From: Escherichia coli
Lineage (GTDB): Bacteria; Pseudomonadota; Gammaproteobacteria; Enterobacterales; Enterobacteriaceae
Reading direction: 5' to 3' (one strand)
DNA length: 64,000 nucleotides
Assembly: GCF_041886205.1 (NCBI RefSeq)
Contig: NZ_CP169029.1
Part shown: positions 48,701 to 51,700 of the stretch, piece by piece
How the letters are laid out: the number at the start of each line of letters is the position of its first letter
Position numbering within the stretch: position 1 is the first letter of the stretch
Made by a program: the position numbers

Positions 48701-51700
48701 GGCTCATGCTGCCAGTGAATCATATCGTCGCTGGTGGCATGTCCCCAGTGCATTGGTCCCCAGTGTTCGCTCATCGGGTGATGTTGATAAAACGCGTGAT
48801 AACGATCGTTAAACCAGATCAGGCCGTTTGGATCGTTCATCCATCCGGCAGGAGGCGCGAGGTGAAAATGGGGATAGAAAGTGTTACCCCGGTGCTCATG
48901 AAGTTTTGCTAGTGCGTTTTGCGCCGCATGCAATCGAGTTTGCGTCATTTTAATCATCCAGGTTAAGCAAATTTGGTGAATTGTTAACGTTAACTTTTAT
49001 AAAAATAAAGTCCCTTACTTTCATAAATGCGATAAACATCACAAATGTTAACGTTAACTATGACGTTTTGTGATCGAATATGCATGTTTTAGTAAATCCA
49101 TGACGATTTTGCGAAAAAGAGGTTTATCACTATGCGTAAGTCAGATGAATTTAAGGGAAAAAAATGTCAGCCAAAGTATGGGTTTTAGGGGATGCGGTCG
49201 TAGATCTCTTGCCAGAATCAGACGGGCGGCTACTGCCTTGTCCTGGCGGCGCGCCAGCTAACGTTGCGGTGGGAATCGCCAGATTAGGCGGAATAAGTGG
49301 GTTTATAGGTCGGGTCGGTGATGATCCTTTTGGGGCGTTAATGCAAAGAACGCTGCTAACTGAGGGAGTCGATATCACGTATCTGAAGCAAGATGAATGG
49401 CACCGGACATCCACGGTGCTTGTCGATCTGAACGATCAAGGGGAACGTTCATTTACGTTTATGGTCCGCCCCAGTGCCGATCTTTTTTTAGAGACGACAG
49501 ACTTGCCCTGCTGGCGACATGGCGAATGGTTACATCTCTGTTCAATTGCGTTGTCTGCCGAGCCTTCGCGTACCAGCGCATTTACTGCGATGACGGCGAT
49601 CCGGCATGCCGGAGGTTTTGTCAGCTTCGATCCTAATATTCGTGAAGATCTATGGCAAGACGAGCATTTGCTCCGCTTGTGTTTGCGGCAGGCGCTACAA
49701 CTGGCGGATGTCGTCAAGCTCTCGGAAGAAGAATGGCGACTTATCAGTGGAAAAACACAGAACGATCGGGATATATGCGCCCTGGCAAAAGAGTATGAGA
49801 TCGCCATGCTGTTGGTGACTAAAGGTGCAGAAGGTGTGGTGGTCTGTTATCGAGGACAAGTTCACCATTTTGCTGGAATGTCTGTGAATTGTGTCGATAG
49901 CACGGGGGCGGGAGATGCGTTCGTTGCCGGGTTACTCACAGGTCTGTCCTCTACGGGATTATCTACAGATGAGAGAGAAATGCGACGAATTATCGATCTC
50001 GCTCAACGTTGCGGAGCGCTTGCAGTAACGGCGAAAGGGGCAATGACAGCGCTGCCATGTCGACAAGAACTGGAATAGTGAGAAGTAAACGGCGAAGTCG
50101 CTCTTATCTCTAAATAGGACGTGAATTTTTTAACGACAGGCAGGTAATTATGGCACTGAATATTCCATTCAGAAATGCGTACTATCGTTTTGCATCCAGT
50201 TACTCATTTCTCTTTTTTATTTCCTGGTCGCTGTGGTGGTCGTTATACGCTATTTGGCTGAAAGGACATCTAGGGTTGACAGGGACGGAATTAGGTACAC
50301 TTTATTCGGTCAACCAGTTTACCAGCATTCTATTTATGATGTTCTACGGCATCGTTCAGGATAAACTCGGTCTGAAGAAACCGCTCATCTGGTGTATGAG
50401 TTTCATCCTGGTCTTGACCGGACCGTTTATGATTTACGTTTATGAACCGTTACTGCAAAGCAATTTTTCTGTAGGTCTAATTCTGGGGGCGCTCTTTTTT
50501 GGCCTGGGGTATCTGGCGGGATGCGGTTTGCTTGACAGCTTCACCGAAAAAATGGCGCGAAATTTTCATTTCGAATATGGAACAGCGCGCGCCTGGGGAT
50601 CTTTTGGCTATGCTATTGGCGCGTTCTTTGCCGGCATATTTTTTAGTATCAGTCCCCATATCAACTTCTGGTTGGTCTCGCTATTTGGCGCTGTATTTAT
50701 GATGATCAACATGTGTTTTAAAGATAAGGATCACCAGTGCGTAGCGGCGGATGCGGGAGGGGTAAAAAAAGAGGATTTTATCGCAGTTTTCAAGGATCGA
50801 AACTTCTGGGTTTTCGTCATATTTATTGTGGGGACGTGGTCTTTCTATAACATTTTTGATCAACAACTTTTTCCTGTCTTTTATGCAGGTTTATTCGAAT
50901 CACACGATGTAGGAACGCGCCTGTATGGTTATCTCAACTCATTCCAGGTGGTACTCGAAGCGCTATGCATGGCGATTATTCCTTTCTTTGTGAATCGGGT
51001 AGGGCCAAAAAATGCATTACTTATCGGTGTTGTGATTATGGCGTTGCGTATCCTTTCCTGCGCGCTGTTCGTTAACCCCTGGATTATTTCATTAGTGAAG
51101 CTGTTACATGCCATTGAGGTTCCACTTTGTGTCATATCCGTCTTCAAATACAGCGTGGCAAACTTTGATAAGCGCCTGTCGTCGACGATCTTTCTGATTG
51201 GTTTTCAAATTGCCAGTTCGCTTGGGATTGTGCTGCTTTCAACGCCGACTGGGATACTCTTTGACCACGCAGGCTACCAGACAGTTTTCTTCGCAATTTC
51301 GGGTATTGTCTGCCTGATGTTGCTATTTGGCATTTTCTTCCTGAGTAAAAAACGCGAGCAAATAGTTATGGAAACGCCTGTACCTTCAGCAATATAGACG
51401 TAAACTTTTCCGGTTGTTGTCGATATCTCCCTATCCCTCAACCGGAAAATAATAATACTAAAGTGCTTAGCCCTGCTAATAATCACCTAATCCAAACGCC
51501 TCATTCATGTTCTGGTACAGTCGCTCAAATGTACTTCAGATGCGCGGTTCGCTGATTTCCAGGACATTGTCGTCATTCAGCGACCTGTCCCGTGTATCAC
51601 GGTCCTGCGAATTCATCAAGGAATGCATTGCGGAGTGAAGTATCGAGTCACGCCATATTTCGCTATCAGGATTCTGTGTGATGGTTACATCGCCCGGCCC

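What the first reader, a model, noticed from the sequence alone, without database searches (positions are those of the whole stretch)
48949..49163. Two identical palindromic 13-mers (TGTTAACGTTAAC) in the cscA / cscKB divergent control region
The 215-bp intergenic region contains two exact copies of a perfect palindrome with the LacI-family central CG, 64 bp apart. This fits a CscR operator pair able to repress both divergent promoters, possibly by looping.
Basis: seen in the sequence. Interest (0 to 1): 0.35.

Follow-up and report, generated by a model that had tools for sequence, protein, structure and literature searches.

The report
Known CscR operator pair in csc
The two identical palindromes between the E. 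coli sucrose genes cscA and cscK are the already published binding sites for the sucrose repressor CscR, so the finding is real but ordinary.

Summary
TGTTAACGTTAAC occurs exactly twice, at 48982-48994 and 49046-49058, 64 bp apart, in the 215-bp cscA/cscK intergenic region of an E. coli csc locus. The truly palindromic core is the 12-mer GTTAACGTTAAC. The shared unit is the 14-mer TGTTAACGTTAACT.

The interpretation, CscR operators, is supported and already published. Jahreis et al. 2002, as summarised in PMC11251922 and PMC3938415, described two copies of a 12-bp inverted repeat here. One of them was hit by a derepressing operator mutation.

My own comparison extends this:
- Both sites are invariant in 7 E. 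coli alleles.
- A pair of such sites 62-64 bp apart sits upstream of cscA-type operons in 57 of 80 other species loci. Seven Proteus loci have a 68-69 bp variant.
- The pair tracks the presence of a cscR homologue.
- In 56 loci the upstream operator lies at fixed distances between two CRP sites, 24 and 17 bp centre to centre. This holds even where there is no divergent operon.

So the pair brackets the cscA-side promoter rather than giving one operator to each promoter. LacI-style looping is doubtful, because CscR has no room for a C-terminal tetramerisation helix. Novelty: already known. Interest: low.

The parts
48982..48995 (.). Operator O1, the cscA-proximal or 'downstream' operator: TGTTAACGTTAACT, with palindromic core 48983-48994 and centre 48988.5
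   Evidence: Exact sequence. Invariant in 7 E. coli alleles. Scores 1.91 bits per column across 44 distinct modules from other species. Lies 45-47 bp from the CRP1 centre in 56 loci.
49046..49059 (.). Operator O2, the cscK-proximal or 'upstream' operator, probably the published cscK operator: TGTTAACGTTAACT, with core 49047-49058 and centre 49052.5
   Evidence: Invariant in E. coli. Scores 1.97 bits per column across species. Always 17 bp from the CRP1 centre and 24 bp from the CRP2 centre in 56 loci.
49028..49043 (.). CRP site 1, TGCGATAAACATCACA, centre 49035.5, lying between the two operators
   Evidence: One mismatch to TGTGAnnnnnnTCACA. Conserved at 1.43 bits per column. Within 3 mismatches in 56 of 64 pair-bearing loci. 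The literature reports two cAMP-CRP sites in this promoter region (PMC3938415).
49069..49084 (.). CRP site 2, TGTGATCGAATATGCA, centre 49076.5: one perfect half-site and one poor half-site in E. coli
   Evidence: Three mismatches in E. coli-type loci, but 0-1 mismatches in Yersinia, Providencia and Serratia, at an invariant 24 bp from the O2 centre. GATCACA is strongly conserved.
48996..49007 (-). A/T-rich candidate -10 region of the cscA promoter: TATTTT at 49007->49002, or TATAAA at 49001->48996 (inferred)
   Evidence: Position is inferred from CRP1 acting as a class II site. This would place the transcription start at about 48989-48995, at the edge of O1 or inside it. The consensus promoter scan found nothing. 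PMC11251922 states that the downstream operator overlaps the transcription start.
49121..49131 (+). Conserved block GGTTTATCACT, a candidate -10 region of the cscKB promoter (inferred)
   Evidence: Conserved among 7 E. coli-type loci that share only 65-97% CscK identity. If TATCAC is the -10 element, CRP2 sits near -61 and O2 near -85.
47515..48948 (-). cscA, sucrose hydrolase (invertase)
   Evidence: NCBIfam TIGR01322, E = 8e-144. RefSeq annotation of the identical locus.
49164..50078 (+). cscK, fructokinase
   Evidence: NCBIfam NF006957, E = 5e-152. RefSeq annotation.
50150..51397 (+). cscB, sucrose/H+ MFS permease
   Evidence: NCBIfam TIGR00882, E = 2e-178. RefSeq annotation.
46512..47507 (+). 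cscR, LacI-family sucrose repressor, 331 aa and intact, convergent with cscA
   Evidence: Pfam LacI HTH at residues 3-48 and Peripla_BP_1 at 61-329. 100% identical to WP_001491232.1, annotated 'sucrose operon repressor CscR'. No operator-like site upstream; the best candidate has 5 of 14 mismatches.

Best explanation
The two sites are the operators of CscR, the LacI-family sucrose repressor encoded 1.4 kb away. Each 12-14-bp palindrome with a central CG binds one CscR dimer.

The sites belong to a four-site control cassette. In the direction of cscA transcription, its order is CRP2, O2, CRP1, cscA core promoter, O1.
- O1 (48983-48994) lies at or just downstream of the cscA transcription start. 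It would block RNA polymerase directly.
- O2 (49047-49058) is wedged between two CRP sites, about 58 bp upstream of the cscA start. A repressor bound there would interfere with CRP-dependent activation of cscA. Acting through CRP2, it would also interfere with the divergent cscKB promoter.

When sucrose or a product of it binds CscR, both sites are vacated. cAMP-CRP can then activate both operons.

What is shown: the sequences, their conservation, the fixed geometry, and the link to cscR. What is taken from the literature: repression by CscR, CRP dependence, and one operator-constitutive mutation. What is inferred: the promoter positions, and the way O2 acts.
For: - The sites are exact and unique in the window.
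- An intact LacI-family cscR lies next to them.
- Both operators are invariant in 7 E. coli alleles, whereas single-base differences fall elsewhere in the intergenic region.
- Of 80 loci from other species found with CscA, 64 carry a pair of such sites. The spacing is 64 bp in 43 loci, 63 in 11, 62 in 3 and 68-69 in 7.
- Conservation is about 1.9-2.0 bits per column in the operators, against 0.3-0.5 in neighbouring DNA.
- Among loci with a cscR homologue, 61 have the pair, 6 have one site and none lacks a site. Among loci without one, 2 have the pair, 2 have one site and 4 have none (Fisher p = 1e-4).
- The O2-CRP1 distance (17 bp) and the CRP2-O2 distance (24 bp) are invariant in 56 of 56 loci. 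All the length variation lies between CRP1 and O1.
- The literature reports two 12-bp inverted repeats, one carrying a derepressing mutation; CscR-dependent repression; and two cAMP-CRP sites (PMC11251922; PMC3938415).
Against: - I found no direct binding data (EMSA or footprint) for E. coli CscR in the held library. I could not read Jahreis 2002 or Sabri 2013.
- No transcription start data were available, and the consensus promoter scan found nothing. The operator-to-promoter positions are therefore inferred.
- If my cscKB promoter assignment is right, neither operator overlaps that core promoter. In that case, how cscKB is repressed is not explained by simple occlusion.
- Two loci, Tatumella L007 and Serratia sp. 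L082, have the pair but no cscR within 6 kb.
- The association test is not corrected for shared ancestry.
Confidence: 0.88

Rival explanations
1. CscR bound at O1 and O2 forms a repression loop of the LacI or GalR kind. The loop would enclose CRP1 and the cscA promoter and shut off both divergent promoters cooperatively.
For: The centre-to-centre spacing of 64 bp is about 6.1 helical turns, so both sites face the same side of the helix. The spacing is held at 62-64 bp in 57 loci.
Against: - CscR (331 aa) aligns to LacI residues 5-313 over its residues 3-318. Only 13 residues remain, where LacI has 47 including its tetramerisation helix (plus established knowledge of LacI).
- The closest solved relative, 6ndi, is deposited as two chains.
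- The spacing drifts by 1-2 bp only within the promoter core. Promoter geometry explains that as well as helical phasing does.
- A loop between O1 and O2 would not cover the inferred cscKB promoter.
Confidence: 0.15
2. Each palindrome is the private operator of the nearest promoter: O1 for cscA and O2 for cscKB. Each would act by simple steric occlusion, independently of the other.
For: The literature uses the names 'cscA operator' and 'cscKB operator' (PMC3938415). A mutation in the cscK-side operator allows growth on low sucrose.
Against: - The same two-operator, two-CRP module precedes single operons with no divergent gene in Yersinia (L022) and Serratia (L048).
- O2 lies 105 bp upstream of the cscK ATG, and upstream of CRP2 and of the conserved candidate -10 block. 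It probably does not overlap the cscKB core promoter.
- PMC11251922 places both operators on either side of the cscA -35 and -10 elements.
Confidence: 0.25
3. The palindromes are bound by another LacI-family factor present in all enterobacteria, such as Cra/FruR, or they are a chance or restriction-site-related repeat. Each 12-mer is two tandem HpaI sites.
For: The half-site ends in AAC-G, as Cra and ScrR sites do (from memory). GTTAAC repeated twice is a simple tandem repeat.
Against: The sites track cscR. All 67 loci with a cscR homologue have at least one site, and 4 of 8 loci without one have none, although Cra is ubiquitous. The sites are far better conserved than neighbouring DNA across CscA homologues of 53-98% identity. 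None of 20,000 shuffles reproduced a repeated palindrome.
Confidence: 0.03

Closest known systems
CscR operators of the E. coli EC3132 / W csc regulon (Jahreis et al. 2002, J Bacteriol 184:5307; Sabri et al. 2013)
   Same: The same locus, the same two 12-bp inverted repeats between cscA and cscK, the same repressor and the same CRP dependence. This is that element in another E. coli strain. The intergenic region is 100% identical to strain wlxctx60 and about 98% identical to EDL933, and both operators are unchanged.
   Different: Nothing of substance. This strain has five intergenic single-base differences from EDL933, all outside the operators and the CRP half-sites.
ScrR operators flanking the scrY promoter of pUR400 / Klebsiella scr regulons
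   Same: A LacI-family sucrose repressor with two inverted-repeat operators, one immediately upstream and one downstream of the -35 and -10 elements. The downstream operator lies over the transcription start, and a CRP site lies upstream (PMC11251922).
   Different: A different repressor orthologue group and a PTS-based pathway. According to that paper, the CRP site there is poorly conserved across species. Here both CRP sites keep fixed positions in 56 loci.
CytR-CRP anti-activation complexes (for example at deoP2; from memory)
   Same: A LacI-family repressor site sandwiched between two tandem CRP sites at a CRP-dependent promoter.
   Different: CytR operators are weak and need CRP for binding. 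Here the operators are perfect palindromes, the CRP centres are 41 bp apart rather than about 53, and a second strong operator sits at the transcription start. No CscR-CRP contact has been shown.
LacI O1-O3 and GalR OE-OI repression loops (from memory)
   Same: Two operators in helical phase flanking a CRP-activated promoter.
   Different: CscR lacks the LacI C-terminal tetramerisation segment. The 64-bp distance is shorter than in the lac (92 bp) or gal (113 bp) loops.

Membership tests
LacI-family repressor operator (CscR operator) | Inverted repeat of about 12-20 bp with a central CG | tested here: met
   GTTAACGTTAAC is a perfect 12-bp palindrome centred on CG. The extended 14-mer matches TGTTAACGTTAACA at 13 of 14 positions.
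LacI-family repressor operator (CscR operator) | A cognate LacI-family repressor gene at the locus | tested here: met
   An intact cscR at 46512-47507 with a LacI HTH domain and a Peripla_BP_1 domain.
LacI-family repressor operator (CscR operator) | The site is conserved above background and co-occurs with the repressor orthologue across genomes | tested here: met
   1.9-2.0 bits per column in the operators against 0.3-0.5 in flanking DNA. 61 of 67 loci with cscR have the pair, and 4 of 8 loci without cscR have no site.
LacI-family repressor operator (CscR operator) | The site overlaps or abuts promoter elements of the regulated genes | tested here: inconclusive
   No transcription start data, and no consensus promoter was found. 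The CRP geometry places O1 at about +1 to +6 and O2 at about -58 of the cscA promoter (inference). PMC11251922 says the downstream operator overlaps the start.
LacI-family repressor operator (CscR operator) | Operator mutations derepress the regulon | not testable with these tools
   Reported in the literature: a cscK-side operator mutation found by Jahreis 2002 and recovered again by Steen 2014 (PMC3938415; PMC11251922).
LacI-family repressor operator (CscR operator) | Purified repressor binds the site and is released by the inducer | not testable with these tools
   No such paper was found in the held library. PMC3938415 states that the inducer has not been determined experimentally.
LacI/GalR-type repression loop | Two operators on the same face of the helix | tested here: met
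   64 bp centre to centre is about 6.1 helical turns. The spacing is 62-64 bp in 57 loci.
LacI/GalR-type repression loop | The repressor can bridge two operators through a LacI-type C-terminal tetramerisation helix | tested here: not met
   CscR residues 3-318 align to LacI residues 5-313, and only 13 residues follow. Bridging by some other means is not excluded.
CytR-type anti-activation | The repressor site lies between two CRP sites at fixed distances | tested here: met
   CRP2 to O2 is 24 bp and O2 to CRP1 is 17 bp in 56 of 56 loci.
CytR-type anti-activation | A weak operator whose occupancy depends on cooperative contact with CRP | tested here: not met
   The operator is a perfect, highly conserved palindrome. 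Cooperativity itself cannot be tested here.

The most novel reading that the evidence does not exclude
The pair is not best described as one operator per divergent promoter. It is part of a rigid four-site cassette, CRP2 - 24 bp - O2 - 17 bp - CRP1 - 45 to 47 bp - O1, that is shared by at least 56 species of Enterobacterales, including species with a single, non-divergent operon. In this reading the upstream operator works by CytR-like anti-activation: CscR sits between two CRP dimers and blocks or hijacks CRP-dependent activation. In E. coli the divergent cscKB promoter would then be controlled only indirectly, through CRP2. The fixed geometry is shown here. The mechanism is speculation.
Probability: 0.3. 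Interest if true: 0.4.

Novelty: already known. Interest (0 to 1): 0.12.

Why it matters
For E. coli this adds nothing new. The operators, the repressor and the CRP dependence were published in 2002 and are used routinely in strain engineering, where cscR is deleted to improve growth on sucrose.

The modest added value is comparative. The operator pair and both CRP sites form a module of fixed geometry across many enterobacterial genera. That gives a clean natural data set for asking how a LacI-family dimer and CRP share 41 bp of DNA. It also warns engineers that O2 probably acts through CRP rather than by occluding the cscKB promoter.

Tried and rejected
- I tried to read Jahreis 2002 (PMC135337 and its DOI) and Sabri 2013 (PMC3553775 and its DOI). 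Neither is held, so their content is cited only through PMC11251922 and PMC3938415.
- The consensus promoter and terminator scan of 48850-49250 found nothing.
- A literal search for GTTAACGTTAAC in papers returned only unrelated cloning primers.
- A search for CscR gel-shift papers found none on E. coli CscR.
- PMC11382391 and PMC12465659 contain nothing about the operators.
- I looked for a third operator upstream of cscR, which would indicate autoregulation, and near the cscK start. The best cscR-side match has 5 of 14 mismatches, and no operator-like block is conserved on the cscK side.
- I considered Cra/FruR binding, a chance repeat and a restriction-site artefact. All three were rejected on conservation and on co-occurrence with cscR.

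Full report
**Observation.** The window carries exact TGTTAACGTTAAC at 48982-48994 and 49046-49058, 64 bp apart start to start. Both copies lie in the 215 bp between the cscA start (48948, - strand) and the cscK start (49164, + strand). The perfect palindrome is the 12-mer GTTAACGTTAAC, not the 13-mer. The repeated unit is the 14-mer TGTTAACGTTAACT, which matches the ideal palindrome TGTTAACGTTAACA at 13 of 14 positions. These are the only sites in the 64-kb window within 2 mismatches of that 14-mer. None of 20,000 shuffles of the 30% G+C intergenic region contained the same 12-bp palindrome twice, although 12% contained some 12-bp palindrome.

**Context.** The flanking genes were identified from family profiles and from the RefSeq annotation of an identical locus:
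- emrY, 43059-44597 (+)
- dsdA, 44705-46033 (-)
- a dsdX remnant
- cscR, 46512-47507 (+), 331 aa, with a LacI HTH domain and a sugar-binding domain
- cscA, 47515-48948 (-)
- cscK, 49164-50078 (+)
- cscB, 50150-51397 (+)

The window is E. coli. The intergenic region is 100% identical to strain wlxctx60 and about 98% identical to EDL933. It is present in 2,662 of 5,426 complete E. coli genomes.

**Already known.** PMC11251922 states that Jahreis et al. 2002 identified two copies of a 12-bp inverted repeat between cscA and cscK. One was the site of a derepressing mutation. The repeats flank the cscA -35 and -10 elements, with the downstream one over the transcription start, and a CRP site lies next to the -35 element. 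PMC3938415 adds three points. Repression of both operons is thought to act through cscA and cscKB operator sites in this region. The same cscKB operator mutation was recovered again. Two cAMP-CRP sites lie in the bidirectional promoter. I could not obtain the two primary papers. I found no gel-shift or footprint study of E. coli CscR in the held library.

**Independent test within E. coli.** Seven intergenic alleles were aligned: the window, EDL933 and five others chosen across the identity range. They differ at ten positions, and none of these lies in either operator or in a CRP half-site.

**Independent test across species.**
- A scan of one genome per species with CscA returned 80 loci with 53-98% CscA identity.
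- 64 of these loci carry a pair of GTTAACGTTAAC-like sites with at most 2 mismatches in total. The spacing is 64 bp in 43 loci, 63 in 11, 62 in 3, and 68-69 in 7 Proteus loci.
- In 44 distinct modules with 64-bp spacing, the operators carry 1.97 and 1.91 bits per column and CRP1 carries 1.43. The promoter core between CRP1 and the downstream operator carries 0.42, and the flanks carry 0.33-0.51.
- Among loci where both sides could be seen, 61 of 67 with a cscR homologue have the pair and the other 6 have one site. Of 8 loci without cscR, 2 have the pair, 2 have one site and 4 have none (Fisher p = 1e-4, not corrected for phylogeny).
- This pattern argues for CscR and against a ubiquitous factor such as Cra.

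**Anatomy.** Read in the direction of cscA, the module runs CRP2, O2, CRP1, a variable A/T-rich core, then O1.
- The centre-to-centre distances are 24 bp from CRP2 to O2 and 17 bp from O2 to CRP1, in 56 of 56 loci.
- The distance from CRP1 to O1 is 47 bp in 42 loci, 46 in 11 and 45 in 3.
- In window coordinates the centres are O1 48988.5, CRP1 49035.5, O2 49052.5 and CRP2 49076.5.
- If CRP1 is a class II site at about -41.5, then O1 is at about +5, O2 at about -58 and CRP2 at about -82. This is an inference, because no start-site data were available and the consensus scan found no promoter.
- In Yersinia (L022) and Serratia (L048) the module precedes a single cscB-like/cscA operon with no divergent gene. 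In Klebsiella (L077) cscR itself diverges from the module.
- The pair therefore brackets the cscA-side promoter. It is not intrinsically one operator per divergent promoter.

**The cscKB side.** Seven E. coli-type loci share a conserved block GGTTTATCA(C/A)T at 49121-49131. If this block is the -10 region, CRP2 lies near -61, a class I position, and O2 lies near -85. Neither operator would then overlap the cscKB core promoter. Repression of cscKB would have to work through interference with CRP2 or through higher-order contacts. This step is inferred and is the weakest part of the model.

**Looping.** The 64-bp spacing is about 6.1 helical turns, which fits looping. However, CscR residues 3-318 align to LacI residues 5-313 and only 13 residues follow. 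LacI has 47 further residues, which include its tetramerisation helix (plus established knowledge of LacI). The closest solved relative, 6ndi, is deposited as two chains. All the length variation lies in the promoter core. I rate LacI-style looping as unlikely but not excluded.

**Verdict.** The feature is already known and of low interest. The most novel reading that the evidence does not exclude is that the upstream operator acts as a CytR-like anti-activation site between two CRP dimers, within a module of fixed geometry shared by many enterobacterial genera.

Noticed in passing
window 61737-61811 (-), 51875-52237 (-), 53265-56762 (-), about 46051-46269 (-): The csc genes sit in the known argW/dsd hot spot. 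tRNA-Arg(CCU), which is argW, is at 61737-61811. A transposase HTH fragment and a 1165-aa autotransporter (Autotransporter, AC_1, PATR, VID and Pertactin domains) lie between cscB and argW. A truncated dsdX remnant lies between dsdA and cscR.
   Followed up: partly
window 49033-49038; loci L018-L082, about 17 bp downstream of the upstream operator: The 6-bp spacer of CRP1 is nearly invariant (TTAACA, about 1.3-1.5 bits per column) in the Yersinia, Serratia and Klebsiella-type modules, although CRP spacers are normally free to vary. It resembles an operator half-site (GTTAAC). The E. coli-type loci do not share it. Unexplained.
   Followed up: no
13-16 bp upstream of the downstream operator in 44 modules (window about 49007-49010, - strand): A conserved CTTT stands out in the otherwise unconserved promoter core. 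It matches neither -10 consensus position cleanly. Unexplained.
   Followed up: no
L047, L049-L052, L054, L057 (Proteus); L065, L072, L073, L075 (Moellerella, Providencia stuartii group): These loci use a different architecture. The Proteus loci have 1-mismatch sites (GATAACGTTAAC and GTTATCGTTAAC) 68-69 bp apart with no recognisable CRP sites. The others have a single perfect site.
   Followed up: no
L007 (Tatumella sp. JGM118), L082 (Serratia sp. Ag1): A complete operator pair is present, but no cscR homologue was detected within the fetched locus, which extends 6 kb on each side of cscA. Either the repressor is encoded elsewhere, or these are naturally derepressed loci.
   Followed up: no
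window 49133-49189 (+): A short upstream ORF (ATG at 49133, 18 codons, preceded by AAGAGG) overlaps the cscK start out of frame. Its sequence is not conserved at the protein level in Tatumella, so it is probably not meaningful.
   Followed up: partly
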